The notes below the pieces were generated by a model, which did no database searches, was not told the DNA's origin, and saw only the letters and a list, made by a program, of their open reading frames with translations. This document shows positions 8,208 through 27,628 of a stretch of 64,000 nt of DNA, piece after piece (within the stretch, counting starts at the first letter, position 1; every line of letters begins with the position of its first letter). The translations under genes and the position numbers were made by a program. This stretch comes from Dehalococcoidia bacterium (GTDB lineage: Bacteria > Chloroflexota > Dehalococcoidia > Lucifugimonadales > CATOSD01), in assembly GCA_965204815.1 (NCBI GenBank), contig OZ242014.1, positions 1,512,532 through 1,576,531 on the forward strand, written 5' to 3'.

Positions 8208-8313
8208 GTGTGGGGAACCGCCAGTCATTTCTGTAGATGATGGAGTCCATCCAATGGGGACGAAGGCCTCACTCCGTTGGCGCGTCGCCCTTGTAGGAGT
8301 TGCGCGGAAACGA

Positions 8314-8328
8314 GCCTGTGTCAGATTA
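8314..8328. repeat. 15-nt arm GCCTGTGTCAGATTA; perfect inverted partner at 8919-8933
   Basis: Read directly: 8314-8328 GCCTGTGTCAGATTA and 8919-8933 TAATCTGACACAGGC. CGCGGAAAC lies adjacent to each arm. Confidence 0.6.
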
Positions 8329-8384
8329 TCAGGCGGCTTCCACACCAACACTCCTAAGAATGCGGTGACGCGAATTCTGTTAGA

Positions 8385-8900
8385 ATCTGCGACTTTCTGT
8401 GCGACTCCTAGCTGAGAGGGGCGTCGGTCCTGCTCAATTCTGTAATGCTGGCGTGGGCAAATCGTGACAGAATTGTCGCGCGGCGTGGCAGAGTGGGACG
8501 GTGTCAGTGGTCGGTGACCAGTGACCAGTCGTCACCCCCATCCTAACCCGTTCGACTACGCTCAGGGCAGTCTCTTCCCCCCTCGACGGGGGGAAGAGAC
8601 TTTGGAATGGGGCGGGTCGGTCCCGCGGGCGGGTTTGAAGCCCGCCCATATCGTGTACGAGAATAGCACGGATGTACGCACCATGCAAGACCGTTGGCGA
8701 AATTGCGGGAACAGGGCCGAGATTGGGGGTTTGGGGGCGGATTTGTGGACAGAAATTGCGCACGAATGAGAACCGGTGGGACGTGCGTGAGAATGGGTGA
8801 GACACGGATGAGAACGGGTGGCGCGCGAAAGTGACGGTTTTTCGGGGTCGTGGGCGCGAGTGAGCGGGTGTGGGCAGGGCAGGGTGTTCGCGAGAGGGAC
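8385..8900 (+). repeat. Dispersed non-coding repeat, copy A (inverted copy B at 28140-28555)
   Basis: Hand alignment with the reverse complement of 28140-28555. Shared blocks are ACTTTCTGTG, the GGGCGGGTTTGAAGCCCGCCC hairpin, GTTGGCGAA.AT.GCGGGA, three 21-bp TGAGAA..GGTG units and GGTGGCGCG.GAAAGTGACG.TTTTTCGGGGT. Confidence 0.7.
8532..8599 (-). repeat. Member (inverted orientation) of the hairpin + GTTAGGATGGGGGTGA intergenic repeat family
   Basis: TCACCCCCATCCTAAC at 8532-8547. A 12-bp-stem hairpin TCTCTTCCCCCC/GGGGGGAAGAGA lies at 8571-8599. Confidence 0.55.
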
Positions 8901-8950
8901 TGTTATGGGCGCGCCTAGTAATCTGACACAGGCTTCGCGGAAACCGTCGA

Positions 8951-8980: not shown

Positions 8981-9019
8981 CTGCTCAAACGCGTGGTTCT
9001 GCATCAAGCGAGAACGTGT

Positions 9020-10330
9020 ATGAGCCGAACAGAGACCCAATCTGTCGAGCAACCCGACTCATGTGTCAGGTTCATTGACCTGTTTGCTGGTTGCGGTGGG
9101 CTGTCTCTTGGATTGATTGAGGCGGGCTGGACAGGACTGTTCGCCATCGAGAAGGATCCAGATGCCTTCAGGACGTTCAAGCACAACCTACTAGATAGGC
9201 CTGGATCGAGTTACGCTTGGCCCGAGTGGTTGCCTGCCACCGCGATGGAGATACAGACCTTTCTTGAGGAATTCCATGAGCACTTGGAAGGTCTAAAAGG
9301 TAATGTAGACTTGATAGTCGGAGGACCTCCCTGTCAAGGTTTTTCGTTTGCGGGCAGGCGTATGGAGAACGATCCCCGCAATCTTGCATTCAAGCACTTC
9401 GTTAGTTCGGTTGAGGTTATACAACCCTCCCTCGTGTTGATTGAAAATGTGCCCGGCATCAAGTCACGTTTTTCTGACAGCGAAGAGTCTAGGCCGTTCA
9501 CCACACTGATACGTGAATCCCTTGAAGAACAGTGCGGGTACACTGTATTTGACCATACCATCAGGGCAGTTGATTTCGGTGTAGCCCAACTCCGACCAAG
9601 ACATTTCATGGTAGGAGTAAAGGGGCGCATCGCCGAGAACCAAGGCATAGAGTTACCTAATCCCTTTGAACTGTTAGAAAAGGGGAGACGCGGTTTTCTT
9701 CACGCGAAGGGCATGAGTGCAGATCGCAAAGTCTCAGTTGAAGAAGCCATATCAGACCTTGAGGTTGGTGACAGTGCAAATGACTTGGTAGATTGCCCTG
9801 ACACTCCTGGCTTTAAGCAGATAAAGTACGGCGCTCCCCAAACGAACTACCAAAGGATGCTCCATCGCGGCTTAGTCGGCGTTTCCCCCAATAGCCTCAG
9901 ACTGGCAAGACATCGACACGAAACGGTAAGCCGGTTCGCTAAGCTAATCGAGACGTGTCGAAAGGGCGTGAACCTGTCCTCGGAGGAAAGGGCTCGGTTT
10001 GATATTCGCAAATCCTCAATAAAGATACTGGATAAGTCTATGCCTTCGCCAACTCTGACTACCCTCCCCGACGACATAATTCACTACTCCGAACCCCGTA
10101 TCCTTACCGTGAGGGAAAGCGCGAGAATCCAGTCTTTTCCAGACTGGTTTGAATTCAAGGGAAAGTACACTACAGGAGGGCACAGGCGTGCTCAGGAGTG
10201 CCCTAGATACACTCAGGTCGCTAATGCCGTACCACCCTTGGTGGCTGAGGCACTCGGCGATACCCTGAAGACGTTGTTAAAGTGCCTTATGGCCGATAGT
10301 TCCAGCGCTGTCAGATGCCAGACATGTTGA
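9020..10330 (+). CDS. DNA (cytosine-5)-methyltransferase
   Basis: Motif I FIDLFAGCGGLSLG, motif IV GGPPCQGFSFAGRR, motif VI ENVPG, motif IX RESARIQSFPDWFEF, motif X ANAVPP. An alternative start at 8993 is possible. Confidence 0.9.
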   Translation: MSRTETQSVEQPDSCVRFIDLFAGCGGLSLGLIEAGWTGLFAIEKDPDAFRTFKHNLLDRPGSSYAWPEWLPATAMEIQTFLEEFHEHLEGLKGNVDLIVGGPPCQGFSFAGRRMENDPRNLAFKHFVSSVEVIQPSLVLIENVPGIKSRFSDSEESRPFTTLIRESLEEQCGYTVFDHTIRAVDFGVAQLRPRHFMVGVKGRIAENQGIELPNPFELLEKGRRGFLHAKGMSADRKVSVEEAISDLEVGDSANDLVDCPDTPGFKQIKYGAPQTNYQRMLHRGLVGVSPNSLRLARHRHETVSRFAKLIETCRKGVNLSSEERARFDIRKSSIKILDKSMPSPTLTTLPDDIIHYSEPRILTVRESARIQSFPDWFEFKGKYTTGGHRRAQECPRYTQVANAVPPLVAEALGDTLKTLLKCLMADSSSAVRCQTC

Positions 10331-10983
10331 CGCTGACACATCAAAGGCTCGAAGAGTTCCGAGGTGCTTTGCTGCCGTGGTTCAAGGAGTACGGGCGGCA
10401 GTTCCATTGGCGGGATCACCATGTTTCCACCTACGAGTTGATCGTCTCGGAGCTTCTCCTTCAACGAACCCAGGCGGACACAGTGAATCGGTTTCTGAGT
10501 ACATTTCTATGTCGATTCCCTTCATGGAGTGAGCTTGCCGAGGAATCCGAAGAATCCTTGGCTTTGTTCCTCAAACCACTTGGCCTATGGAGGCGGCGGG
10601 CGACGACGCTCCACCGTCTGGCTATTGAACTTAAGAAGAGAGACGGGAAATTTCCCGAAGACCGAGTCACCATTGAGTCATTGCCCGGCGTCGGCCAGTA
10701 CATAGCTAACGCAGTTGAGATGTTCTGCCATAGTCGAGCCCGTCCGCTCCTCGACTCAAACATGGCTAGGGTGTTGGAACGCTACTTTGGGCCGAGGAAA
10801 CTGGCTGACATTCGATACGATCCCTACCTGCAATCGTTGGCTGCCAGAGTTGTGAAAGCCACTGATCCGGTTCGTATCAACTGGGCAATCTTGGACTTAG
10901 CTGCCCTAGTGTGCCTGTCTAAGTTGCCAAGTTGCCACGAATGTCCTTTGTCAAAGGCATGCACGTTCGCGCAAGCGGCTTGA
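10315..10983 (+). CDS. HhH-GPD DNA glycosylase, MutY/Mig-like with a 4Fe-4S loop and no MutY C-terminal domain; predicted T:G mismatch repair partner of the m5C MTase
   Basis: YELIVSELLLQRTQ (MutY catalytic Glu context), LPGVGQYIANAV hairpin-helix, LLDSNMARVL (catalytic Asp context), and C-x6-C-x2-C-x5-C (CLSKLPSCHECPLSKAC). 222 aa. Overlaps the MTase stop. Confidence 0.8.
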   Translation: MPDMLTLTHQRLEEFRGALLPWFKEYGRQFHWRDHHVSTYELIVSELLLQRTQADTVNRFLSTFLCRFPSWSELAEESEESLALFLKPLGLWRRRATTLHRLAIELKKRDGKFPEDRVTIESLPGVGQYIANAVEMFCHSRARPLLDSNMARVLERYFGPRKLADIRYDPYLQSLAARVVKATDPVRINWAILDLAALVCLSKLPSCHECPLSKACTFAQAA

Positions 10984-11019: not shown

Positions 11020-13320
11020 ATGAGCGAGCGAATCGCGGACATAACGCCGTCGCCCAGAATCCTCAGGATGCTAGGGAGGATAGACTTCCACCAGTGGCAG
11101 TGCCTAGCGGAGCTCATAGACAACGCTGTAGATGCGTTTCTAGTTGGACGAGAATCCGGGCATGGCACCATGTTTCCGCAAGTGAACGTAGAAATCTCTA
11201 GCAATGCTGAAATCTTGCAAGGGATAGGGACTATACGGGTTACAGATAATGCCCCTGGCATGGCATTGGATAAGTTGGAAAGCGCGGTCAGGGCTGGATT
11301 CTCAGGAAACAACTCAGTAGACAAGCTTGGCCTGTTCGGGATGGGTTTCAACGTCGCGACGGCAAGGCTCGGAGCCTGCACAGAGGTGTGGTCCACTAGA
11401 GTTGAAGATGAAGTGTGGAGTGGGGTGCGTATTGATTTTGATGAACTCGAAGAGTCAGGATCATTCGCAACACCATTTCTCCAACGTCCCAAGGCGCCAT
11501 TTGAGCAGCGCAGACATGGAACCGAAATCATAATCTCAAAGCTAGATGTTGAACGCGTCAGATACCTAAGAACCCCTGGAGGACTAAGGGCGACCAGGGA
11601 AAAACTCAGCAGGATTTACAACAAGATTATGAGAGAGGTTGGACTGCGGGTGTTAGTGGCAGACCAACCACTTGCTACGCGGGACTTCTGCGTCTGGGAT
11701 GAGGGCAGGACTGTGCCAAATTCCCGTTTTGGCCGTGTTCCGGCCCGTTTGCCAATTCATCAGGACTTTGGAAACCGGAATTATTGTGAAGACTGCTGGG
11801 TGTGGCTTCTCGAGGCCGAAGAGACGTGTCCTGCATGCAACAGCAGCAGAAACCTCCGTATGCGCAACAGGCAGGTTACTGGATGGATAGGGATACAGAG
11901 ATTCTTCGATCTGGAGGACTATGGAATTGACCTGATCCGAAACGGCAGGATTATCGAGGAACGCACGAAGCACTTCTTTTCGTGGGAGACTCCAGATGGC
12001 GATAGATTGCCTGAGTATCCAATAGAGCAACAGCATTGGGGTGGACGTATAGTCGGTGAACTGAGCATTGACTTTGTGCCACTGGAAGGACACCACAAGG
12101 ATGCATTTGATCACAATACGCAAGAGTGGCGGATGGTATTGGCAGCCGTCCGCGGTCGGGGGCCTATTCTGCCGAACATTAGGAAAGATCGCTTCGGGTA
12201 TGATGACGAGAATGACTCCCCCTTGGCGAGACTTCACTCTGCATACAGGCGAGGTTCGCCTTGCGGCTTAAACACGTTGGTGCCGGGAAACAGTGCTGGA
12301 AAGGGTATCAACACCGAACCTCAGCGGTGGGCAACCCTCTTCTGGGAAGGTAAACCTGATTACCAGTCGGACAAGATATGGCATGACGCAGTTCTCTTTG
12401 GTGAAGAGGCAAGAAACAAGAACAAGGGCAAGAAGCCAAGAGATGACAGGGAAGGAAACGACCTGTTCGACGAACCCGACGAACCAGGTGAAGAAGAGAC
12501 CAAGGAATCACCAAGCACGGATGTGGAACATGAACGTGATCCATTCCTTTCATTTGAGGCAGATCTTCCTGAGATGAGCGGCAGCCCAAGGCTGCGCGTG
12601 CAAACGGAGAGGCTAGTTCGGGGTTCGTTAAGTCAGGGATTGCATCTAGAACTCGCGCCAGTGGGTAACAACTTGACGGTCATTTACGATCCTAACCATG
12701 AGATTTTCACGAAGACTCTCGCTGATCCTCTTGGTTGCGTGTTGGAAGAGTTAGGATATCAATTCCTACAGCGAAGTGGCCAAACACAGGTCAACTGGCC
12801 TATATCTCGGATTGTTCATGAGTTAAGGAAGCGTCACTTCGCTTCGTCATTAGACAGCGTAGAAGAGGTGCGGGCGGAGTCCATAGGGCTGCTGAACGAC
12901 CTCATCGAATGGTACGTAGAAGGACTAATGAGTCTCTCCCCATTGCCTGACGATGAAGTGGATGACGAAGAGCGCGCGCGCGTGGTCCAAGGTGTCGTCC
13001 GCATGGACAGGGCTGGTCTGGAAAGAGCAGCTGAAGTCATTCGAACAGGGCTCTACCCGAAGTACATCGGGCATCAGGTTTTGCCAGCTCTTGTACAGCG
13101 GCGGCCCGAATTGGTGCTTGATGGAAAATTCTTCAGTGTTTCATTCACGGATGTCCCTGAGGAGTTGAGGGCACAAGTTGTTGAGCGAGTTACTACGCCC
13201 ATCCGAGATCTACTTTGGATTGCAGAAACTGACGATGCTGGTGGGTCTGGGAATGAGTGGCGCAACATGCTGGCCCGTGCCGCTGCCAGCTTGCGGCTTC
13301 TGTCAGCTTGGAGGTGCTGA
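11020..13320 (+). CDS. GHKL-superfamily ATPase (HATPase_c_3 / MORC-MutL-like) with internal zinc ribbon and acidic linker
   Basis: N-box ELIDNAVDAF, G1 box VTDNAPGM, G2 box GLFGMGFNVA. Zinc ribbon CEDCWVWLLEAEETCPACN. Acidic tract DLFDEPDEPGEEE. Confidence 0.8.
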   Translation: MSERIADITPSPRILRMLGRIDFHQWQCLAELIDNAVDAFLVGRESGHGTMFPQVNVEISSNAEILQGIGTIRVTDNAPGMALDKLESAVRAGFSGNNSVDKLGLFGMGFNVATARLGACTEVWSTRVEDEVWSGVRIDFDELEESGSFATPFLQRPKAPFEQRRHGTEIIISKLDVERVRYLRTPGGLRATREKLSRIYNKIMREVGLRVLVADQPLATRDFCVWDEGRTVPNSRFGRVPARLPIHQDFGNRNYCEDCWVWLLEAEETCPACNSSRNLRMRNRQVTGWIGIQRFFDLEDYGIDLIRNGRIIEERTKHFFSWETPDGDRLPEYPIEQQHWGGRIVGELSIDFVPLEGHHKDAFDHNTQEWRMVLAAVRGRGPILPNIRKDRFGYDDENDSPLARLHSAYRRGSPCGLNTLVPGNSAGKGINTEPQRWATLFWEGKPDYQSDKIWHDAVLFGEEARNKNKGKKPRDDREGNDLFDEPDEPGEEETKESPSTDVEHERDPFLSFEADLPEMSGSPRLRVQTERLVRGSLSQGLHLELAPVGNNLTVIYDPNHEIFTKTLADPLGCVLEELGYQFLQRSGQTQVNWPISRIVHELRKRHFASSLDSVEEVRAESIGLLNDLIEWYVEGLMSLSPLPDDEVDDEERARVVQGVVRMDRAGLERAAEVIRTGLYPKYIGHQVLPALVQRRPELVLDGKFFSVSFTDVPEELRAQVVERVTTPIRDLLWIAETDDAGGSGNEWRNMLARAAASLRLLSAWRC

Positions 13321-14991
13321 ATGCCGGGGTTCCTCGGAATTGAGCGATTGAGCCTCGGTCCTTGGCAAGCCTTCGAAAGGGCTGTACAGAGGTTGCTAGT
13401 ACATGCTGGGTTCGACGATGTGTTACTTGTGGGCGGAACTGGCGACGGTGGGGCCGATATCACTGCCAACCGCAACAGCCGAACCTTGGTAGTACAGGCA
13501 AAATTTAGATCCAGAGGTACATTACTAGGCACGGACCCCGTGCAGGAGGTGGCGATCGGTGCGGGGAAGTACGATGCACAGATTGCTGTAGTGGCCACAA
13601 ACACTGGATTCACAGAAGCTGCAATTGAACGTGCCGAAGAGTTGGAGTTAGACCTCGGCGTGAAGTTCTTGCTTTGGAACCGTGATTTTCTGTCAATGCG
13701 CTTTCGGCGGTTGGCTCCCTACTCGTCGGAACGGAAGGACCTGCGACCTTACCAAGAAGCCGCGGTGGAGAGAGTCAATTCCAAAATCATGCACGGTGCA
13801 GACAGGGGTCTACTCTTGATGGCGACCGGGCTTGGAAAGACGAGGGTTGCTGCGGGCGTGATTGAACAATGGATTGAAGACCGCCCAAGTGATGAAGTCC
13901 TGGTGTTGTCACCTTCGCGCAGCCTCGTTCCGCAGCTTGAGTCCGAACTTTGGCCTTACCTTCCGAAGTCCGTTGCAACACATGTTCTCACAGGATCCGA
14001 AAAGCCCAGCTTTGAAGGGGGGGTTACCGTTGCAACTGAGCAATCGATGCTTCAACAGTTACCTGATGCTCACGGCCGTTTCGGTCTGGTAATCGTAGAC
14101 GAAGCTCATCACGCGCCTGCCGATGGCTACCGCCGCCTTATTGGGGAACTGGCGCCCAAGTTCCTTTTCGGCATGACTGCAACGCCGTGGAGAAGTGACC
14201 ATCAAAATCTCGAGGAGATTTTCGGCGGACCTACTTACACTGCCAGTATCGTGGATGGTATGCAGCTAGGCTATCTTTCAAAGGTCGACTACCGGATGCT
14301 TGTAGATGACATTAACTGGGACTGGGTAAGAAGCGAATTGGGCGATGGGATCTCAGTTAAGGAACTCAATCGCAAACTGTTTATACCGGAGAGAGATGAA
14401 GCAACGGTTATGAAGATACGCCGGCACTTGGAAGCGGTTCTTGACCCCCGTGCTCTTGTGTTTTGCCGATCCATTTTGCATGCGGAGAGAATCCGGAATC
14501 TCCTCCAAGCGGAGGGTTTGTCAGCGAAGGTCCTACACAGTAAACTGGGTCGCTTCGAATCGGCTGCAACACTGAGGGCGTTTCGTTCAGGTGAAATTCC
14601 AATTCTGGTGACCGTCGACATGGTTAACGAAGGCATTGATATCCCAGACGTCAATCTGATCGTATTCCTCCGGGTGACGCATTCTAGGCGCATCTTTCTT
14701 CAGCAGCTTGGACGAGGGCTTAGGATAACAGAGAGCAAAGACATCGTCCGTGTACTTGATTTTGTGTCGGATGTACGAAGGATTGCTGAAGGTATGCGAA
14801 TCAATCGCGATGCCCTGTCACTGGCAACGAATTCAGACTCCGAGCTGGTTGTATACCCCACGGGCGAAGTCGTGAGTTTTGAGGGTGACAAGAGTCTGGA
14901 TTTCTTTCGAGAGTATCTGGCTGATGTTGCTGAGTTAGAAGAAGGAAACGATGACTCAAAGCTGAAGTTCCCTGCTGTCAGGCGAGCGTAG
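13321..14991 (+). CDS. Mrr-like PD-(D/E)xK restriction endonuclease domain fused to an SF2 DEAH helicase (ResIII + Helicase_C)
   Basis: N-terminus FERAVQRLLVHAGFDDV..GDGGADI..LVVQAKFRS (Mrr_cat pattern). Walker A MATGLGKTRV, VIVDEAHHAP, GMTATPWRSD, and C-terminal QQLGRGLR. The ATG abuts the upstream TGA (TGAATG). Confidence 0.85.
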   Translation: MPGFLGIERLSLGPWQAFERAVQRLLVHAGFDDVLLVGGTGDGGADITANRNSRTLVVQAKFRSRGTLLGTDPVQEVAIGAGKYDAQIAVVATNTGFTEAAIERAEELELDLGVKFLLWNRDFLSMRFRRLAPYSSERKDLRPYQEAAVERVNSKIMHGADRGLLLMATGLGKTRVAAGVIEQWIEDRPSDEVLVLSPSRSLVPQLESELWPYLPKSVATHVLTGSEKPSFEGGVTVATEQSMLQQLPDAHGRFGLVIVDEAHHAPADGYRRLIGELAPKFLFGMTATPWRSDHQNLEEIFGGPTYTASIVDGMQLGYLSKVDYRMLVDDINWDWVRSELGDGISVKELNRKLFIPERDEATVMKIRRHLEAVLDPRALVFCRSILHAERIRNLLQAEGLSAKVLHSKLGRFESAATLRAFRSGEIPILVTVDMVNEGIDIPDVNLIVFLRVTHSRRIFLQQLGRGLRITESKDIVRVLDFVSDVRRIAEGMRINRDALSLATNSDSELVVYPTGEVVSFEGDKSLDFFREYLADVAELEEGNDDSKLKFPAVRRA

Positions 14992-15046: not shown

Positions 15047-16531
15047 ATGGTGATCCATGTAAGAATACCTTCATGGACGCCTTGCAAGGTTGACCCAGTC
15101 TCATTCGATTGTAGCGAGTGCGAGATTGGCTGGTCCTCATGCCGACTAAAGACTGACGATAGCCTACGCCATTACTTTGCATCACTGAGCAGACGTCGGA
15201 ATGGAGTCTCCCCAACGTCCTATGGATTCGAGGTCTGGGTTGAGGAACTTGTAGCCAGTTTTCTCGAAACCCACGGATTGAGTGTTACTGCCCAGATCTT
15301 GCTCGAATATCTAGCACCAGAAATTCCACCGGATGTGTCAGAAGCGAAATTGCGCCACATCTTGATGCAGTCTTCGCGCTTCGTGGAAACGTCGCCAGGC
15401 ATGTTTAATCTGGCACCTGGCCGAATCCGGAGTGGGAGTGAGCTACCTGGCCTCACACCTTCTTCGGGGACACTACTAGAGGATTTGCTTTCTCGGGCCA
15501 ACTTGCTCGCCAGAGACGAGCAGTTGGTTAAGTTCAAAAGGCTAGCTGGGTACAGGTTCTTCATTACTCATCATCCCAGAACAAGAGAGATTGCTGCCAA
15601 GACAATTCGGGAGCTGTCGGACTGGGCACTTAACCACCGTGGCTGGAGTGAGTTCGACATCTATAAGTTCGCAGTGGGTCCAGACGGTGTCGCTCAGGCA
15701 GCAAACGATATGCATGATATTGCTTCAGAGGACGACCTTGACAGGACGCATAGATTGTTATCTGCCTTATCGGCGACCGAGTGGGGCGACTTTGGCTCGA
15801 TTGATTCGACTAGAGAAGCCTTCCGCGAATTGAGGGATGAACTGATACTTGCTAATCTCAAGCTAGTATCGTCTCAAGCCATACGATGGGCAAGGGGTCA
15901 GTTCCCAAACTACGCCGATCTCTTTCAGGAGGGGTTTTTTGGACTGACTATAGCAATCGATAGATTCGATCCCTATCGTGGAAACCAATTCTCTACGTAT
16001 GCGACTCCTTGGATCAGGCAGAGGATCACAAGGTCCGTTGCTAACTTCGAGCGCACGATTCGCATTCCCGTTCACTTGCACGATCGCATCAGCGATTTTC
16101 GTCATGCGCTTGACGAACATTATAGGGAACTTGGACACAAGCCTACAGTGAGCGAATTGTCGGCAAGGCTGGGGTGGAACACTGCAGAAGTTGCATTCGC
16201 CCTGAGTAATTTCCAGGAAGTTGATTCACTTGATAGCTTACTGGATGACCCCAGCCGCTCATTTGATGGTGATGCTGCATTCCATGTGAATCCCACTGAG
16301 ATGATCGTTGAGCAGATCGCTACAGAGGATGTTGAGAAAGTCCTGAATGCACTGAATGACAGGGAGGCCAAAATCCTAAGGCTAAGATTTGGACTAGGAG
16401 AAGACGGATACCCCCACACCCTCGAAGAGATAGGCAAAATATATGGGGTTACTCGTGAAAGAATCAGGCAGATTGAGAGCAAGGCAAAGAAGAAAATCTT
16501 GCGGAAGTATCAGTACCGTCACTTCATCTAA
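15047..16531 (+). CDS. Sigma-70 family sigma factor (regions 2, 3, 4; RpoD-like) with a roughly 270-aa N-terminal extension of unknown function
   Basis: Region 2 DLFQEGFFGLTIAIDRFDPYRGNQFSTYATPWIRQRITRSV, region 3 RTIRIPVHL, region 4 TLEEIGKIYGVTRERIRQIESKAKKKIL. Confidence 0.8.
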   Translation: MVIHVRIPSWTPCKVDPVSFDCSECEIGWSSCRLKTDDSLRHYFASLSRRRNGVSPTSYGFEVWVEELVASFLETHGLSVTAQILLEYLAPEIPPDVSEAKLRHILMQSSRFVETSPGMFNLAPGRIRSGSELPGLTPSSGTLLEDLLSRANLLARDEQLVKFKRLAGYRFFITHHPRTREIAAKTIRELSDWALNHRGWSEFDIYKFAVGPDGVAQAANDMHDIASEDDLDRTHRLLSALSATEWGDFGSIDSTREAFRELRDELILANLKLVSSQAIRWARGQFPNYADLFQEGFFGLTIAIDRFDPYRGNQFSTYATPWIRQRITRSVANFERTIRIPVHLHDRISDFRHALDEHYRELGHKPTVSELSARLGWNTAEVAFALSNFQEVDSLDSLLDDPSRSFDGDAAFHVNPTEMIVEQIATEDVEKVLNALNDREAKILRLRFGLGEDGYPHTLEEIGKIYGVTRERIRQIESKAKKKILRKYQYRHFI

Positions 16532-22995: not shown

Positions 22996-23055
22996 GGTGC
23001 CGCGAGCGGCGGCGTGGAGGTTGGCGAGGCGTTCTCATACTATTTGCGGATGGGC

Positions 23056-23079
23056 AGGCTGACAAGGGTGGGTCAGCCT
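23056..23079 (+). terminator. Hairpin downstream of ogg (possible terminator), at the left edge of island 2
   Basis: AGGCTGAC (23056-23063) / GTCAGCCT (23072-23079), 8-bp stem, followed by a T/C-rich tract. Confidence 0.4.
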
Positions 23080-23205
23080 TTCCCCAAATCCTTTTTCTCC
23101 TTCAATGAGGAAGGCCAACAGGAGAGCGTAGATTGTAGAAGTCATCAAGTAGCACGTTGTGTATAATGAATCGGCCGCATACTTTGCTATTGGATCGAAC
23201 TCCAA

Positions 23206-24546
23206 ATGACTGACGTACAGGAGATTCTGCTCTCAACAATAGCAGAAAAGCGCCCCTTAATTCTCCTATTGGGCGAAGATGCTTGGAGCGACTCGCCACA
23301 GGGTGATGTCCTTCTGACGTCCGCACTCCAGAGGCTCTATGGGATCACCGAGCAAAGGAGCGGGTGGTCGGGGATGCTCACAGGAGAATCCGTACCCTCT
23401 GGGCATTATGACTGGCTAGCAGAACGCTTTGAGCGACGAAGGCACCCTCCATTTGTCGAAGTGTTGAGGGACCTCCCATGGGGCGCAGTGTTCACATCGT
23501 CGATAGACCCGACGCTCGTGAGGCTGTTTTCATATCGAGGGAGAGAGCCCGAGCCCATCCTAACTGAGGGGGAGCGTCCGCGCGCTGCCCGGAGTACGGT
23601 GCGACCACCCTTATACTATCTGTTTAGTCGCGCAGGTGAGCAGGACTTTAAGGCGCAACCACCAAGCAACCGGCGAGAACTAAACACTCGTCGTGCCCAG
23701 CATGCGGTTCCCTTACTCAACCGAATTCGGGAAACTGCGACGCCCCTAGGCACAATTGTCGTTGACGGGCTGTTGCGGGGAAACGGATGGCTCAGAATCC
23801 AGGATCTGCTAGGTGCACTTGAAGGAGCTTCGGCACATCAGATTCTATGGTTTGGCGGCAAGCCCGATCTACCTCCAGAGGATGCGGACTACTTTACGGA
23901 ACTTGTGCAAGATGGGGAAATAGTCGTTTCGGAAAAGCGACTTGGAACCGTCACTGCTGAGCTCAAAGCTACGGGGTGGCTTGCCGACATCGTTCCACTT
24001 GAATCTGAAGACGCCGGTCAAATCAGCTTCGCATCAGGTGGAGTGTATGAAGTTCCACCTGATGTCCGACTTAGAGTCGAAGCGGTGGCTTCAATCGTCG
24101 ACGACTCTTGGACTTCTTTCCTTCCACCACTCGGGCCAGATTCTAGGTACGATGCATTTCGTAGATTCCACGGTGCCCTAGGTGGGGCTCGACTTCTGGT
24201 AGAGGGTGTCAGAAGAGATTTTGCGATCGAGAGAGACTTTGAGCAACAGCTATCGAAGCAAGTGTTCGCCGCGCTTGCAGATCATTCAAGGCTCGATCTG
24301 CCTATAGTAATCGAAGGCCAATCTGGGGTTGGTAAGTCCGTAGCCTTGGCACGTCTTGTGGCTAAAGTAAGGGAAGAAAAGGCAGCGGCCGTACTCTATT
24401 CGATTGGCCGTGTCCCTCAATCCCAAGAAGTCTCAGGATTTTGCCAGGCGGTTGAGCGATCAGATGCGCCTGTGACGCTGATTGTATGCGATGCCAACAG
24501 GAATATCGACGACTATGACGAACTGTTGAGCGGACTGAGGGCCTAG
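23206..24546 (+). CDS. Island-2 protein A: divergent SIR2-like (SIR2_2-pattern) N-terminal region plus the P-loop NTPase N-half (Walker A/B); likely the 5' part of a split STAND-type gene
   Basis: PLILLLGEDAWS, AVFTSSIDPTLVRLF, PLYYLFS and ILWFGGKPDL mirror the SIR2_2 block order, but GAG, N/D and H positions are substituted. Walker A IEGQSGVGKSVALARL. Walker B VTLIVCDANR sits about 20 aa before the stop. Confidence 0.55.
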   Translation: MTDVQEILLSTIAEKRPLILLLGEDAWSDSPQGDVLLTSALQRLYGITEQRSGWSGMLTGESVPSGHYDWLAERFERRRHPPFVEVLRDLPWGAVFTSSIDPTLVRLFSYRGREPEPILTEGERPRAARSTVRPPLYYLFSRAGEQDFKAQPPSNRRELNTRRAQHAVPLLNRIRETATPLGTIVVDGLLRGNGWLRIQDLLGALEGASAHQILWFGGKPDLPPEDADYFTELVQDGEIVVSEKRLGTVTAELKATGWLADIVPLESEDAGQISFASGGVYEVPPDVRLRVEAVASIVDDSWTSFLPPLGPDSRYDAFRRFHGALGGARLLVEGVRRDFAIERDFEQQLSKQVFAALADHSRLDLPIVIEGQSGVGKSVALARLVAKVREEKAAAVLYSIGRVPQSQEVSGFCQAVERSDAPVTLIVCDANRNIDDYDELLSGLRA

Positions 24547-24635
24547 GGAGACGTGTTGTAGTAGTTGGATCACAGTATCGTGTTTCTGCCAACGAAAGCG
24601 GGGATCAACATCCACGCCTTGAGGCCACGTCTGGC

Positions 24636-26603
24636 TTGTCAGCAACTGAGAGGCAGAAACTGCTCGAGCTAATTGGTTCCTTTGACGTAGGCACGCAGTT
24701 TCAACCAGAAGGCGAGCACTTCTTGGCGTTCTTGTACCGTCACTTGCCGGCCAGCAGACCACACATCGGCTCTGGTCTCGGCGCGGAGGCAAGAGCGACC
24801 GTGCAAGTGTTGGATGAAAGGGGCAATCAGCAACAGCCAACGCCCGTAATCAGCAAGTTACACCAACAACTCGTTGAGAAGGGGTACATAAGCGAGTATC
24901 AGGCTCTCTTTGATGACCGACAATCCGACGAATTAGACGCTAATGAGCTCTCTGCGGGAAAGATCGTGGATATGGTCATGGTGGCTGGCAGGCTGAACTG
25001 CCCAGTTCCCGTGAACGTCCTTTTACGAGCAGTTAGCGACCAGTATCAGAGGTTTGACTCCACGCTAGTCTCCAGCCTATTCCGTGATCTCGACTTGTTT
25101 AGATGGGACTCTGGTGACTCCCAAGGCAACGAACTAGTTGTGCTTCCCCGGTTGCCGCTTGAGGCGCAACTCATCTGTGAACGTAGGCTTGGGAGTACGC
25201 AAGCCGAAGCTGGCGTAATCGTTGACTTGATAGGCTCGGTTCGGCTTGGGCTTGACGGGACTCACGAACGAGCATTCCTGCTTAATCTCCTTCAGCAAGT
25301 CGGACGCGACGGACCTCGGGGTAGTGCTTACAGGCATACCTATGCGGACTTTGCTCGAAAACTTACCGAACTGCGTAATCAATACAATGTGGTTGACGCC
25401 AGCCTAATGTTGCAGGAATCTGCTTTCCGAAGGAGTGCAGTGCGGGAAGAGCAAGTTGACGACGAACTTCACTTCTCACTATTAGAAGAAGCACGTGATG
25501 CGGTACAGACTGCACTAGACGGAATTGACAATGGACAGTTGCGGGCAGCAAGGCGAACGCGGCAAAACCTCCTTGTCGAACGCGCGGCACTCTATGGGTT
25601 TCTCGCTAACGACCGTGCCAGGCGAAACGAGATATCTACGGATATATGGTCTGCGTACCAAGCTGCAAGGGTTGCAGTTCGTCAAGCGGTAAGCGCAGCA
25701 GACAACTATTATCCCTACGATGTAGGAATTTGGAGCCCTGCCGACCTATTCGAATCTGCTGATTTGACAGAATCACAACGTGCGGAACTGGCGGCGGACA
25801 TATATTCCACATTGGATCAGGTGGAGCGGAACTCACTGCCACCGTCCCAAAGACAGAAGTTTCGGAGGCGCCAGATGACTGTCGGCGGTGTGCTCGGAAA
25901 CCAGGCACTCACAGACGCCGCCTACGTTGAACTTGAACGCCTGGGGTCGACTGCCGGATATTTCTTGCGCGCGCGAGGAATTGCCCCTGAATTGGGAAGC
26001 CAAGAGGTTGAAGTAACTCTAACCGCGGACATTGAGAGAGCCCAGAGAGCTGCTGACTTTTTGACTGAGCGTTTCGACAAGATTCGACAAGATGAGCGAT
26101 GTCTGTGGTTGCTACTGGAGAACCGTTGGATCACTCTGATGAGGCGTCGGCCACTTCGTGGCCAGCGTCAACCATTGCCTGAAGGCGATGCTCGTCTTGA
26201 ACTTCTCGACATCATCCGTTCGCTTAACCTTGCTGCCGGTGACTCGGCACGGTACGGGACTCGCTATCTTGAGGCAGTGCTCATATGGTTGTCGAACGAC
26301 TATATTGCCGCACGCGAGATCTTTCGACAACTCGATAGAGAAACCGATAATGTTTACCGAGGTCGAGTCTTTCGGCGTCACGTGATATCCGACTCTAGTG
26401 GCGGCCCCAAGGGATTCACCGGACGGATTGAGGACCGAACTGGACAAGACCGATGGCGGCTTCGGGTAAACGAACTCGGCCAAACAATAGACTTGCTCGA
26501 AAGAGATTTCTCCCGCGAAGACATACAATATGGACGGACACTGTCCGGATTCGCCATTGCATTCAATTTCATTGGTCCAATTGCTGATCCCATTAGGCGA
26601 TAG
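24636..26603 (+). CDS. Island-2 protein B: continuation of the NTPase core followed by about 600 aa of helical region and a small C-terminal domain
   Basis: The frame is open from 24519. In-frame upstream peptide GRRVVVVGSQYRVSANESG...RLEATSGLSATERQKLLELI resembles the post-Walker-B strand and signature helix of STAND/AAA NTPases. TTG start per the track, with no good RBS. Confidence 0.5.
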   Translation: MSATERQKLLELIGSFDVGTQFQPEGEHFLAFLYRHLPASRPHIGSGLGAEARATVQVLDERGNQQQPTPVISKLHQQLVEKGYISEYQALFDDRQSDELDANELSAGKIVDMVMVAGRLNCPVPVNVLLRAVSDQYQRFDSTLVSSLFRDLDLFRWDSGDSQGNELVVLPRLPLEAQLICERRLGSTQAEAGVIVDLIGSVRLGLDGTHERAFLLNLLQQVGRDGPRGSAYRHTYADFARKLTELRNQYNVVDASLMLQESAFRRSAVREEQVDDELHFSLLEEARDAVQTALDGIDNGQLRAARRTRQNLLVERAALYGFLANDRARRNEISTDIWSAYQAARVAVRQAVSAADNYYPYDVGIWSPADLFESADLTESQRAELAADIYSTLDQVERNSLPPSQRQKFRRRQMTVGGVLGNQALTDAAYVELERLGSTAGYFLRARGIAPELGSQEVEVTLTADIERAQRAADFLTERFDKIRQDERCLWLLLENRWITLMRRRPLRGQRQPLPEGDARLELLDIIRSLNLAAGDSARYGTRYLEAVLIWLSNDYIAAREIFRQLDRETDNVYRGRVFRRHVISDSSGGPKGFTGRIEDRTGQDRWRLRVNELGQTIDLLERDFSREDIQYGRTLSGFAIAFNFIGPIADPIRR

Positions 26604-26604
26604 A

Positions 26605-27492
26605 ATGCAGTTCTCAGAATTGAATGCGGAAGTCGAAAACCTACGCCGGTCACTTAGGAGCTTTGTGGGCGAGAACGCTCTTGAGGAAATCAACGTTCAA
26701 GCTCCGGCACGTTATGACGAGGCCTCGTTTCTTCGCTTAGGTGCGTGGAGCTATGTTCTCATCTTTGAGGCTGGCAGAGTGACGATTCCATTCCTACTTA
26801 AGCTTCCTTCCGGCCTGGGTACGCCGCAGTCCAAAATGAAGGAAACACTCGATCTGGTGCACGATCTCCGTACTTGGAGCTTCCATAACCTGAGTTTTGC
26901 TAGTGAGCGCGAGCTTGAAATGTCGAGGAGGACTACGCTGTGGTTTATAAGAAACTCCGGCTCCAGTCCCCCTAAGGATATCGCAGGATGGAGCCGCAGC
27001 TTTGAGTCCCTTTGTATCGACGTACATGCTATTGTCGCCCACTGTAAAGCTGCGTTCGAATGTGCTTTGTCCTCACCTGAAGACGAGCCGACGATAGTTG
27101 ACGACTTAAATCGCCGAGTGGATCGTAGTTGGCCTGCGTACAGATTCGACGAACTCGTTAGCGACGCCGTTATGCGTATTGGACAGAAGCTCGACGTCCC
27201 TACATTCCGTCAAAGCAGGCTCTCGAAGTGGCGAAACTATCTGCAGACGATTGCGGAGGGCGATGAACCGGAGACACAAATCGTACGCTTCATTGAGCGC
27301 GACGTTCTTGACTATTTTGAATCCGTACTCCCCATTGACGGCAAAGACGTCATGGCAGAGCTAGGTCTGAGCCCCGGACCGGCAGTAGGTAGAGCCTTAA
27401 GCAATGCTCGTCGCCTTTACGGGGCAGGAGTGACTGATCGGAACAAGCTACTAGCCTGTCTTCAAAGGGACGCCGGAAGGTTTACAACTTAA
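26605..27492 (+). CDS. Island-2 protein C: unknown function; possible HEPN-like Rx4H motif and a C-terminal motif resembling the CCA-adding enzyme/poly(A) polymerase C-terminal region
   Basis: ATG at 26605, 1 nt after the protein B stop (TAGAATG). DLRTWSFHN gives R-x4-H. C-terminal DGKDVMAELGLSPGPAVGRALSNARRLY matches the G(K/H)DL..LG..PGP..G pattern. Confidence 0.5.
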   Translation: MQFSELNAEVENLRRSLRSFVGENALEEINVQAPARYDEASFLRLGAWSYVLIFEAGRVTIPFLLKLPSGLGTPQSKMKETLDLVHDLRTWSFHNLSFASERELEMSRRTTLWFIRNSGSSPPKDIAGWSRSFESLCIDVHAIVAHCKAAFECALSSPEDEPTIVDDLNRRVDRSWPAYRFDELVSDAVMRIGQKLDVPTFRQSRLSKWRNYLQTIAEGDEPETQIVRFIERDVLDYFESVLPIDGKDVMAELGLSPGPAVGRALSNARRLYGAGVTDRNKLLACLQRDAGRFTT

Positions 27493-27628
27493 CCATCGAT
27501 ATTGTTGGTTGCGAAAAAGAACAAATCGGGGTGCAGAGCAAATGCTCCGCTCGATCATGCCCACCGTCCGAATTATAGACTTCACCAGCCCAACCGGAAC
27601 CCCTGCGGGGTAAATTGCGGAGAATTGC

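What the first reader, a model, noticed from the sequence alone, without database searches (positions are those of the whole stretch)
11020..14991. GHKL ATPase and Mrr-helicase are stop/start-coupled: predicted ATP-driven nuclease pair
The GHKL gene ends with TGA at 13318-13320 and the Mrr::helicase ATG starts at 13321, implying stoichiometric co-translation. Together the pair holds two different ATPase engines (GHKL clamp-like and SF2 translocase) and a single Mrr-type nuclease. The GHKL protein also has a CxxC...CxxC zinc ribbon and a long acidic linker (DLFDEPDEPGEEE). Mechanistically this resembles neither Type I/III translocating enzymes nor McrBC.
Basis: inference. Interest (0 to 1): 0.6.

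Follow-up and report, generated by a model that had tools for sequence, protein, structure and literature searches.

The report
MORC ATPase–helicase-nuclease restriction cassette
The two abutting genes are a real, always-co-inherited pair: a bacterial MORC-type ATPase and a nuclease-helicase that travel with a cytosine DNA methylase, a kind of restriction-modification cassette predicted by comparative genomics in 2008 and, as far as I could find, never tested at the bench.

Summary
ORF 11020-13320 (766 aa, GHKL ATPase) ends in TGA at 13318-13320. ORF 13321-14991 (556 aa, Mrr nuclease fused to an SF2 helicase) starts at the next base.

The pairing is not chance. In 78 of 78 related genome loci with downstream DNA, an Mrr-helicase gene follows the GHKL gene on the same strand, -20 to +14 nt away. 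In the reverse test it held in 17 of 17 metagenome loci with full upstream DNA.

- The GHKL protein is a prokaryotic MORC. It has the family signature motif, and eukaryotic MORC3/4 (by sequence) and MORC2/3/4 (by fold) are its best solved-structure matches.
- The pair belongs to a five-gene low-GC island. The other genes are a C5 cytosine methyltransferase (clustered in 79 of 80 related loci), a MutY/Mig-like glycosylase that replaces the usual Vsr, and a sigma-70-like gene.
- Iyer, Abhiman and Aravind described this architecture in 2008: MORC, a Rad25-like helicase fused to a restriction-fold nuclease, Dcm and Vsr.

Most likely it is an ATP-dependent restriction-modification system in which a MORC dimer clamp loads or licenses the nuclease-motor on unmethylated DNA. 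That function is inferred, not shown. I rate it a new member of a known, uncharacterised kind, of moderate interest.

The parts
8993..10330 (+). C5 cytosine DNA methyltransferase (ORF from GTG 8993; an in-frame ATG at 9020 is the likelier start)
   Evidence: Pfam DNA_methylase 8e-49. NCBIfam dcm 3e-39. PADLOC MTase_II 4e-77. A C5 MTase homologue lies within about 6.5 kb of the MORC gene in 79 of 80 related genome loci; the exception, L070, has only 893 nt upstream.
10315..10983 (+). HhH-GPD (MutY/Mig-like) DNA glycosylase with a C-x6-C-x2-C-x5-C iron-sulfur loop. It overlaps the MTase gene by 16 nt and takes the place of Vsr.
   Evidence: Pfam HhH-GPD 6e-11. NCBIfam mutY 1e-44, below the family cut-off. 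PADLOC 'Type II nicking endonuclease' 4e-28. Present with the pair in 14 related loci plus the window, and never together with Vsr, which is in 51 loci.
11020..13320 (+). Prokaryotic MORC-type GHKL ATPase, 766 aa
   Evidence: The Shine-Dalgarno sequence AAGGAG lies 8 nt before the ATG.
11095..11523 (+). GHKL (Bergerat) ATP-binding domain, residues 26-168. Invariant residues: E31, D34, N35 (N box), D76 and G80 (G1), and GLFGMGFN 104-111 (G2).
   Evidence: Pfam HATPase_c_3; invariant columns in A1.
11785..11838 (+). Four-cysteine zinc knuckle (C256, C259, C270, C273) at the tip of a long beta-hairpin in the S5-like domain
   Evidence: All four Cys are invariant in A1. The model has strands 243-256 and 279-293 on either side.
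11923..11955 (+). MORC family signature GhXhhpXXRhl, here G302-I-D-L-I-R-N-G-R-I-I312
   Evidence: The motif is defined in PMC2292703. G302, L305, R307, N308, G309 and R310 are invariant in A1.
12097..12099 (+). K360, the candidate S5-domain lysine that contacts the ATP gamma-phosphate
   Evidence: Invariant in A1. It aligns with the K in HNKQDF of MORC3 in a weak second stretch.
12400..12519 (+). Acidic linker (residues 461-500), modelled as disordered
   Evidence: pLDDT < 50. The columns are variable and gapped in A1.
12520..13317 (+). C-terminal domain: a beta-sheet subdomain plus a helical bundle that ends in the conserved LRLLxxWR. No known relative. It is the fastest-evolving part of the system.
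   Evidence: Model pLDDT 88. No PDB fold match with E < 0.2. No Pfam hit. Mean pairwise identity is 0.29, against 0.49 for the N-terminal module.
13310..13323 (+). Gene junction: GGAGG, 3 nt, TGA, then ATG
   Evidence: The tight junction is conserved in 78 of 78 loci.
13321..14991 (+). Mrr-nuclease::SF2 (ResIII/Rad25-like) helicase, 556 aa
13363..13644 (+). Mrr-type PD-(D/E)xK nuclease domain (residues 15-108). D42, G44, D46, Q59 and K61 are invariant.
   Evidence: Pfam Mrr_cat 6e-16; A2 invariant columns. Matches LlaBIII residues 73-245.
13735..14727 (+). SF2 motor (residues 139-469): ATGLGKT 168-174, DEAHH 260-264, TATP 286-289, QQLGRGLR 461-468
   Evidence: Pfam ResIII and Helicase_C; A2. 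Best PDB matches: 7clg 2e-53, RadD 2e-47, a Type I R subunit (3h1t) 4e-43, XPB 1e-40.
15047..16531 (+). Sigma-70-like protein. Regions 2-4 occupy residues 253-486; the N-terminal 250 aa have no known domain. It is the last gene of the low-GC island and an accessory found only in the window's clade.
   Evidence: Pfam Sigma70_r2, r3 and r4. The best NCBIfam match is MzaA at 208 bits against a cut-off of 800. The N-terminus has no Pfam hit. Conserved downstream of the pair in L001-L004, L014 and L064.

Best explanation
The region is a horizontally acquired five-gene cassette at about 8.99-16.53 kb. Its core is a MORC-type restriction-modification system.

Proposed mechanism:
1. The C5 methyltransferase marks host DNA.
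2. The HhH-GPD glycosylase repairs the T:G mismatches left by 5-methylcytosine deamination. In most relatives Vsr does this job.
3. The MORC protein dimerises through its GHKL domains when it binds ATP and closes around DNA, as its eukaryotic relatives do. Its zinc knuckle and its fast-evolving C-terminal domain are the candidate DNA-contact and partner-contact surfaces.
4. On DNA that lacks the protective methylation, MORC recruits or licenses its partner, made from the abutting gene. That partner is an N-terminal Mrr-type nuclease joined to an SF2 translocase.
5. The partner moves along the DNA using ATP and cuts it.

Shown here: the domain identities, intact catalytic motifs, MORC membership, strict two-way linkage of the two genes, near-universal linkage to a C5 methyltransferase, and foreign base composition.

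Inferred: the direction of methylation sensing, which subunit reads the DNA, any physical complex, and the defence phenotype.
For: Island:
- GC is 0.50-0.56 across 9-17 kb, against 0.61-0.70 in the flanking DNA. The island sits between a carboxyl-transferase gene and an acetyl-CoA synthetase gene.

MORC identity:
- The signature GhXhhpXXRhl is present and invariant.
- A profile search of the PDB puts MORC3 (1.5e-6) and MORC4 (4.5e-5) ahead of TRAP1, Topo VI-B and MutL.
- The AlphaFold model has mean pLDDT 78.9. Its top Foldseek hits are MORC2, MORC3 and MORC4 ATPase modules, E about 2e-12 over about 430-500 alignment columns.

Nuclease-motor:
- All helicase motifs and the Mrr D...QxK motif are invariant in 20 homologues.
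- It matches a Type I R subunit, XPB/Rad25, and the LlaBIII nuclease-motor N-terminus.

Linkage:
- About 506 of 185,579 species genomes encode a MORC of this family.
- In 78 of 78 loci with downstream DNA the Mrr-helicase gene follows directly on the same strand.
- In the reverse direction, 17 of 17 metagenome loci with a full-length Mrr-helicase match and enough upstream DNA for a whole MORC gene have MORC upstream. Four more show its C-terminal part at the contig edge. Helicase-only relatives at 29-36% identity have none.
- A C5 methyltransferase clusters in 79 of 80 loci. Vsr is in 51 loci and the glycosylase in 14 plus the window; the two never occur together.
- Methyltransferase divergence tracks MORC and helicase divergence (Spearman 0.69-0.76).

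Literature: the same architecture was predicted to be a restriction-modification system by Iyer et al. 2008.
Against: - No experiment on any member was found in the searchable library. A 2021 paper states that bacterial MORCs remain biochemically uncharacterised.
- The GHKL protein matches no PADLOC model, so the family was not among PADLOC's catalogued known or candidate defence-system proteins in 2023.
- Nothing identifies which subunit reads the sequence. The C-terminal domain has no known fold relative.
- In one closely related pair of loci (L001 and L004) the methyltransferases are only 50% identical while the MORC C-terminal domain stays 84% identical. This argues against a simple match between that domain and methyltransferase specificity.
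- 14 related loci also carry an Eco29kI-like GIY-YIG nuclease beside the methyltransferase. There the methyltransferase may already have a Type II partner, which leaves the role of the MORC pair less clear.
- The methyltransferase varies in position and orientation, so it is less tightly coupled than the pair.
- No interaction between the two proteins was predicted or measured.
Confidence: 0.6

Rival explanations
1. A self-contained repair module for 5-methylcytosine deamination. MORC would act like MutL and the helicase-nuclease like UvrD plus an exonuclease. Together they would excise the T-containing strand after Vsr or the glycosylase has processed a T:G mismatch made by the cassette's own methyltransferase.
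For: - Dcm plus a T:G repair enzyme accompanies the pair in 65 of 76 related loci and in the window.
- Iyer et al. 2008 point out the parallel with MutL, UvrD and Vsr, and allow that some members were recruited to repair.
- From my own knowledge, not checked here: E. coli MutL stimulates Vsr.
Against: - The pair is kept unchanged whether Vsr, a glycosylase (base excision, which needs no strand-excision helicase) or neither (11 loci) is present. The methyltransferase is near-universal.
- An Mrr-type nuclease fused to a ResIII motor is the nuclease-motor module of Type I and Type ISP restriction enzymes.
- The distribution is patchy: about 0.3% of species across many phyla and one archaeon. The cassette has foreign GC content and also occurs on plasmids and in contigs classed as viral. 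That fits a mobile defence or selfish element better than housekeeping repair.
Confidence: 0.12
2. A modification-dependent (Type IV-like) or modification-independent nuclease system. MORC and Mrr-helicase would attack foreign modified or otherwise aberrant DNA. The neighbouring methyltransferase would be unrelated to self-protection, or would be a decoy or partner of another enzyme.
For: - The nuclease domain is of the Mrr family.
- The best PADLOC hit of the motor is a Type IV methyl-directed enzyme model (4e-39). The best PDB match is 7clg, a 953-aa 'putative helicase'; from memory this is the Type IV enzyme SauUSI, which I did not verify.
- 14 loci have a separate Type II-like nuclease next to the methyltransferase.
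Against: - Only the Mrr catalytic domain is present. No methyl-DNA reader domain was detected in either protein.
- A Type IV enzyme that is nearly always linked to a methyltransferase (79 of 80 loci) and co-diverges with it (rho about 0.7) would be self-destructive unless the specificities were disjoint.
Confidence: 0.13
3. The adjacency is incidental: two independent genes that happen to abut, with no functional coupling.
For: A single stop/start abutment is common in compact bacterial genomes. No interaction was tested.
Against: - The order, strand and tight junction hold in 78 of 78 loci, across bacterial phyla and an archaeon, at 30-65% identity.
- The reverse linkage holds in 17 of 17 loci.
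- Full-length Mrr-helicase relatives were not found without MORC.
Confidence: 0.02

Closest known systems
Prokaryotic MORC operons of the first class in Iyer, Abhiman & Aravind 2008 (Biol Direct 3:8; PMC2292703): MORC, a Rad25-like SFII helicase fused to a restriction-fold DNase, a DNA cytosine methylase and Vsr
   Same: GHKL plus S5 ATPase carrying the MORC signature motif. A Rad25/ResIII helicase with an N-terminal restriction-fold (Mrr) nuclease encoded next to it. A linked C5 methylase. Patchy, laterally mobile distribution.
   Different: In the window's clade an HhH-GPD glycosylase replaces Vsr and a sigma-70-like gene is appended. I could not confirm gene by gene that this subfamily is in their figure, because the supplement is not held.
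Type ISP restriction-modification enzymes (LlaBIII, PDB 4xqk; LlaGI)
   Same: An N-terminal Mrr-family nuclease directly followed by an SF2 motor. A2 residues 41-206 match LlaBIII residues 73-245 at E 6e-23.
   Different: Type ISP enzymes carry the adenine methyltransferase and target-recognition domains in the same polypeptide (from my own knowledge; not checked here) and have no GHKL partner. Here methylation is by a separate C5 enzyme and a MORC ATPase is added.
Type III (EcoP15I-like) and Type I (HsdR) restriction enzymes
   Same: ATP-dependent SF2 ResIII motor fused to a PD-(D/E)xK nuclease. NCBIfam EcoAI R subunit 8e-37; PDB 3h1t 4e-43.
   Different: No Mod, HsdM or HsdS subunits. All scores are far below the family cut-offs (127 against 550 bits). 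The nuclease is N-terminal. The methyltransferase is a Type II-like C5 enzyme.
CglI/NgoAVII ATP-dependent restriction enzymes (PMC5861437)
   Same: A restriction activity split between two proteins, one of them an SF2-like ATP-driven dsDNA translocase needed to activate cleavage (abstract).
Eukaryotic MORC2, MORC3 and MORC4 ATPase modules (PDB 9cdh, 6o1e, 5ix1, 7k7t)
   Same: MORC3 and MORC4 are the best sequence-profile matches, and MORC2, MORC3 and MORC4 the best fold matches, for residues 1 to about 460. The signature motif is shared. A lysine aligns in the S5 domain.
   Different: 12-17% identity. No CW zinc finger or coiled coils. The bacterial protein has its own zinc knuckle, an acidic linker and an unrelated C-terminal domain, and it is encoded with a nuclease-helicase.
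MZA anti-phage system (PADLOC and NCBIfam MzaA-E)
   Same: The sigma-70-like gene of the island has MzaA as its best NCBIfam and PADLOC match.
   Different: The MzaA score is 208 against a cut-off of 800 and covers only the generic sigma regions. The MORC protein hits no PADLOC model at all, MZA models included. No MzaB-E homologue was detected among the five island proteins.

Membership tests
MORC family (sensu Iyer et al. 2008) | All four GHKL nucleotide-binding motifs intact | tested here: met
   E31, D34 and N35; D76-x-x-x-G80; and GLFGMGFN 104-111 are invariant in 25 homologues. Pfam HATPase_c_3 and HATPase_c.
MORC family (sensu Iyer et al. 2008) | S5-fold domain after the GHKL domain that supplies a conserved basic residue | tested here: met
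   Foldseek aligns about 430-500 columns to MORC2, MORC3 and MORC4 ATPase (GHKL plus S5) modules. K360 is invariant and aligns weakly with the HNKQDF lysine of MORC3.
MORC family (sensu Iyer et al. 2008) | GhXhhpXXRhl motif in the S5 domain | tested here: met
   G302-IDLIRNGRI-I312 fits the pattern, and six of its positions are invariant. I did not check that it occupies the equivalent structural position in eukaryotic MORCs.
MORC family (sensu Iyer et al. 2008) | Sequence searches retrieve MORCs before other GHKL families | tested here: met
   PDB profile search: MORC3 1.5e-6 and MORC4 4.5e-5, against TRAP1 0.012, Topo VI-B 0.1 and MutL 0.8.
MORC-helicase R-M operon, class 1 (Iyer et al. 2008) | Adjacent Rad25-like SFII helicase fused to a restriction-fold nuclease | tested here: met
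   Mrr_cat, ResIII and Helicase_C. XPB/rad25 NCBIfam hits. PDB XPBII 1e-40. Adjacent in 78 of 78 loci.
MORC-helicase R-M operon, class 1 (Iyer et al. 2008) | Linked DNA (mostly cytosine) methylase | tested here: met
   Window ORF 8993-10330. Present in 79 of 80 related loci.
MORC-helicase R-M operon, class 1 (Iyer et al. 2008) | Vsr endonuclease frequently present | tested here: not met
   The island has no Vsr; an HhH-GPD glycosylase sits in its place. Vsr is present in 51 related loci and never with the glycosylase. The paper describes Vsr as frequent, not obligatory.
Type III restriction-modification | Mod methyltransferase subunit that supplies target recognition and forms a complex with Res | tested here: not met
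   The only methyltransferase in the island is a Type II-like C5 enzyme. No N6/N4 Mod gene is present.
Type I restriction-modification | HsdM and HsdS subunits together with HsdR | tested here: not met
   No HsdM or HsdS in the island. The HsdR-type models score far below their cut-offs (127 against 550 bits).
Type IV Mrr / McrBC | A methyl-DNA reader domain (Mrr N-terminal domain) or the McrB AAA+ GTPase, and no cognate methyltransferase | tested here: not met
   Only Mrr_cat is detected, with no reader domain and no AAA+ domain. A methyltransferase is near-universally linked. Methyl-dependence itself cannot be tested with these tools.
MZA system | MzaA sigma factor plus MzaB-E | tested here: not met
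   MzaA scores 208 bits against a cut-off of 800. The GHKL protein has 0 PADLOC hits. No other MZA component was detected among the five island proteins.
MutL | MutL C-terminal dimerisation/endonuclease domain and closest similarity to MutL | tested here: not met
   MutL chains score E about 0.8. The C-terminal domain has no significant PDB fold match, MutL included.

The most novel reading that the evidence does not exclude
The bacterial MORC would be the methylation-state reader and ATP-gated DNA clamp of a distinct, still uncharacterised type of ATP-dependent restriction enzyme. It would load a Type ISP-like nuclease-motor onto unmethylated DNA. Under this reading the cassette preserves the ancestral activity from which eukaryotic MORC silencing of unmethylated or foreign DNA derives. 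In the window's clade a dedicated sigma factor would additionally control the system.
Probability: 0.3. Interest if true: 0.65.

Novelty: new member of a known kind. Interest (0 to 1): 0.4.

Why it matters
Eukaryotic MORC ATPases are studied as regulators of gene silencing, and their bacterial ancestors were predicted in 2008 to work in restriction-modification. I found no biochemical study of a bacterial MORC.

This family offers a compact, strictly conserved two-protein core plus a methyltransferase. Members occur in cultured organisms such as Streptomyces, Ruegeria and Flavobacterium caeni, and on a small Ruegeria plasmid. That makes it a tractable system for asking what a MORC clamp does to DNA and how it controls a nuclease-motor.

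For genome annotation, the pair is currently labelled only 'ATP-binding protein' and 'DEAD/DEAH box helicase family protein'. The GHKL protein matches no PADLOC model.

Tried and rejected
- PADLOC scan of the GHKL protein: 0 hits.
- The look-up of encoding contigs for the window protein and for P0001: no record.
- The listing of cluster members: singleton clusters with no names.
- Promoter and terminator scan of 8.2-17.4 kb: no more sites than in shuffled sequence.
- Search for island-flanking direct repeats or a tRNA: none convincing.
- phmmer of the S5 segment alone against the PDB: only spurious hits to designed repeat proteins.
- Foldseek of the separately modelled C-terminal domain: nothing below E 0.2.
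- Pfam on the C-terminal domain, the zinc-knuckle region and the N-terminal extension of P0097: nothing significant.
- Search for MORC::Mrr-helicase fusion proteins: the three longer homologues checked, of the 120 best, have N-terminal extensions, not fusions.
- Test of whether the unknown 198-aa downstream protein of other loci is homologous to the N-terminus of the window's sigma-like protein: it is not.
- Test of whether the MORC C-terminal domain co-varies with the methyltransferase (partial rank correlation 0.43 given the N-terminal module, against 0.42 with the helicase): inconclusive, because the pairs are phylogenetically dependent and L001/L004 is a counter-example.
- Two literature searches were swamped by unrelated matches.
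- Considered and rejected: a read-through fusion of the two in-frame ORFs. Most relatives overlap by 4 nt in different frames.

Full report
**1. The observation.** The ORF list and the sequence confirm two abutting ORFs. ORF 11020-13320 (+, 766 aa) ends in TGA at 13318-13320. ORF 13321-14991 (+, 556 aa) begins with ATG at 13321. The two are in the same frame, separated only by the stop codon. The final TGG-AGG codons (W764, R765) of the first gene form a GGAGG Shine-Dalgarno sequence 6 nt before the second start.

Pfam gives HATPase_c_3 and HATPase_c for residues 26-168 of the first protein. For the second it gives Mrr_cat (15-108), ResIII (139-289) and Helicase_C (369-469). The CxxC...CxxC (C256, C259, C270, C273) and the acidic stretch DLFDEPDEPGEEE are present.

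**2. The pairing is real.** The GHKL protein belongs to a populous family of roughly 770-aa proteins. There were 2,622 hits among the 8,000 candidates scored, and full-length relatives extend down to 40% identity among the 120 best listed. A scan of one genome per species found relatives in about 506 of 185,579 species. The 80 best loci span Chloroflexota, Alpha- and Gammaproteobacteria, Actinomycetota, Bacteroidota, Planctomycetota, Nitrospirota and an archaeon (Methanoregula).

- In all 78 loci with downstream DNA, a homologue of the Mrr-helicase at 38-67% identity follows directly on the same strand.
- The stop-to-start distance is -4 nt in 38 loci, 0 in 9 and -1 in 9. The rest lie between -20 and +14.
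- In the reverse direction I fetched 80 metagenome loci with the Mrr-helicase alignment. All 17 loci with a full-length match and enough upstream DNA for a whole MORC gene have the GHKL gene upstream. Four more show its C-terminal part at the contig edge. Loci that match only the helicase core (29-36% identity, no Mrr domain) have none.
- Nineteen contigs classed as viral also encode a relative. Eighteen show the pair (the nineteenth ends before the helicase) and sixteen also a methyltransferase match.

**3. What the GHKL protein is.** Iyer, Abhiman and Aravind (2008, PMC2292703) defined prokaryotic MORCs by a GHKL domain, an S5 domain, and the motif GhXhhpXXRhl in the S5 domain. The window protein has G302-I-D-L-I-R-N-G-R-I-I312. 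G302, L305, R307, N308, G309 and R310 are invariant in an alignment of 25 homologues, as are the ATP-binding motifs and K360.

- A profile search of PDB sequences ranks MORC3 (1.5e-6) and MORC4 (4.5e-5) ahead of TRAP1, Topo VI-B and MutL.
- An AlphaFold2 model (mean pLDDT 78.9) has MORC2, MORC3 and MORC4 ATPase modules as its top Foldseek hits, E about 2e-12 over about 430-500 alignment columns.
- The zinc knuckle sits at the tip of a long beta-hairpin in the S5-like part of the model.
- Residues 461-500, the acidic linker, are modelled as disordered and are not conserved in sequence.
- Residues 501-766 form a confidently modelled domain (pLDDT 88): a beta-sheet subdomain plus a helical bundle. 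It has no significant PDB fold match and no Pfam hit. It evolves fastest of all parts, with mean pairwise identity 0.29 against 0.49 for the ATPase module.

**4. What the partner is.** In 20 homologues the nuclease residues D42, G44, D46, Q59 and K61 are invariant. So are motif I (ATGLGKT), motif II (DEAHH), motif III (TATP) and motif VI (QQLGRGLR).

The motor's best solved relatives are:
- 7clg, a 953-aa 'putative helicase' (2e-53)
- RadD (2e-47)
- a Type I R subunit, 3h1t (4e-43)
- XPB/Rad25 (1e-40)

The nuclease-to-motor junction (residues 41-206) matches the N-terminus of the Type ISP enzyme LlaBIII. NCBIfam and PADLOC agree, with partial matches to Type I R subunit, Type IV and PbeA models, all far below family cut-offs. 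So the second protein is a restriction-type nuclease-motor module.

**5. The surroundings.** The pair sits in a low-GC island. GC is 0.50-0.56 across 9-17 kb, against 0.61-0.70 in the flanking DNA. The island lies between a carboxyl-transferase gene and an acetyl-CoA synthetase gene. Its five co-directional genes are:
- a C5 cytosine methyltransferase (8993-10330)
- an HhH-GPD MutY/Mig-like glycosylase (10315-10983)
- the MORC gene
- the Mrr-helicase gene
- a sigma-70-like gene (15047-16531)

I clustered all ORFs around the 80 genome loci.
- A C5 methyltransferase is present in 79 of 80 loci. The exception has almost no upstream DNA.
- Vsr is in 51 loci, and the glycosylase in 14 plus the window. 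No locus has both, so the glycosylase functionally displaces Vsr.
- Eleven loci have neither.
- Accessory genes differ by clade: an unknown 198-aa protein directly downstream (53 loci), a 450-aa protein with a weak sigma region-4 helix-turn-helix (23 loci), a PIN_8 protein (14 loci) and an Eco29kI-like GIY-YIG nuclease beside the methyltransferase (14 loci).
- The window-type sigma-like gene sits downstream of the pair only in the closest clade (six loci).

Methyltransferase divergence tracks MORC and helicase divergence (Spearman 0.69-0.76), so the three genes largely travel together.

An annotated example on a Ruegeria plasmid reads Vsr, Dcm, GIY-YIG nuclease, 'ATP-binding protein', 'DEAD/DEAH box helicase family protein', a hypothetical protein, then a PIN-like protein.

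**6. Comparison with what is known.** The architecture matches the first class of MORC operons in Iyer et al. 2008. That class has a MORC next to a Rad25-like SFII helicase fused to an N- or C-terminal restriction-fold DNase, frequently with a DNA cytosine methylase and Vsr. The authors predicted it to be a restriction-modification system in which the GHKL module reorganises complexes and loops DNA.

I found no experimental paper on a prokaryotic MORC in the searchable library. A 2021 paper states that their biochemistry remains poorly understood.

The related paraMORC3 family, a GHKL domain fused to a nuclease, has been shown to defend against phage as a Shedu variant (VcSduA, PMC12137116). 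That supports a defence role for the wider radiation but is not evidence for this family.

The GHKL protein matches no PADLOC model. Membership in Type I, Type III, Type IV Mrr/McrBC, MZA and MutL fails on defining features (see the membership table).

**7. Mechanism.** The best-supported reading (confidence about 0.6) is an ATP-dependent restriction-modification system.
- The methyltransferase protects the host's own DNA.
- The glycosylase limits the mutagenic cost of 5-methylcytosine.
- A MORC dimer clamps DNA and recruits or licenses the translationally coupled nuclease-motor on unmethylated DNA.

Gene content, motif integrity and linkage are shown. The direction of methylation sensing, the DNA-reading subunit, the complex and the phenotype are inferred.

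Three observations weaken a simple model:
- The methyltransferase sits at variable positions and orientations.
- L001 and L004 carry a methyltransferase swap while the MORC C-terminal domain is unchanged.
- Fourteen loci have a separate Type II-like nuclease beside the methyltransferase.

The rivals are:
- a deamination-repair module analogous to MutL, UvrD and Vsr (about 0.12)
- a modification-dependent or modification-independent nuclease (about 0.13)
- coincidental adjacency (about 0.02, effectively excluded)

**8. Verdict.** It missed the methyltransferase context and the prior description.

The region is a new member of a known, computationally defined and experimentally untested kind. 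Its clade-specific twists are the glycosylase in place of Vsr and the sigma-like gene. Interest is moderate. A specialist would recognise the architecture. The family is nonetheless a clean entry point to the ancestral function of MORC ATPases.

Noticed in passing
window 8313-8335 and 8912-8934; hairpin at 8569-8601: A 23-nt inverted repeat (91% complementary) brackets about 580 nt of non-coding DNA at the left edge of the low-GC island, just upstream of the methyltransferase. The stretch contains a perfect 14-bp hairpin. It could be a MITE-like element or an integration scar.
   Followed up: no
window 13310-13323: The MORC and Mrr-helicase ORFs are in the same frame, separated only by TGA. 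The conserved C-terminal W-R codons (TGG AGG) double as the ribosome-binding site of the next gene. The shared frame is not conserved: most relatives overlap by 4 nt.
   Followed up: partly
window 15047-16531: A sigma-70-like gene closes the island. Its N-terminal 250 residues match no Pfam family. Its best named match is the MZA-system sigma factor MzaA, far below the cut-off. It is conserved downstream of the pair only in the closest clade (L001-L004, L014, L064). Streptomyces-type loci instead carry a 450-aa protein with a weak sigma region-4 motif.
   Followed up: partly
window 10315-10983; related loci L001-L080: The HhH-GPD glycosylase and Vsr are mutually exclusive next to the methyltransferase. 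The glycosylase is in 14 loci plus the window, Vsr is in 51, and no locus has both. This looks like functional displacement of one T:G repair enzyme by another.
   Followed up: yes
L018 8914-9537, L068 14007-14603 and 51 other loci: An unknown protein of about 198 aa with no Pfam hit is encoded directly downstream of the Mrr-helicase in 53 of 80 related loci. It is absent from the window's clade. It may be a third subunit in those systems.
   Followed up: partly
L022, L024, L033, L036, L037 and 9 other loci; L180 5071-5844: An Eco29kI-like GIY-YIG nuclease lies between the methyltransferase and the MORC gene in 14 loci. That would be a complete Type II system sitting beside the MORC pair.
   Followed up: partly
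window 23000-27500: A second low-GC island (GC about 0.52-0.55) carries an ORF with a sub-threshold nSTAND NTPase5 match (23206-24546) and two ORFs without Pfam hits (24636-26603 and 26530-27492). It may be another defence-type insertion.
   Followed up: no
proteins P0097 and P0099 (homologues, not in the window): Some MORC homologues carry an extra N-terminal domain of about 165 aa with no Pfam match. It may be an added DNA-binding module.
   Followed up: partly
L084, L087-L089, L100, L102, L170-L172, L174, L177-L179: In a subset of relatives only the MORC ATPase module (residues 1 to about 476) is recognisably similar. About 1 kb of unmatched coding DNA precedes the Mrr-helicase gene, so the C-terminal domain appears to have been exchanged or to have diverged beyond recognition.
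   Followed up: no
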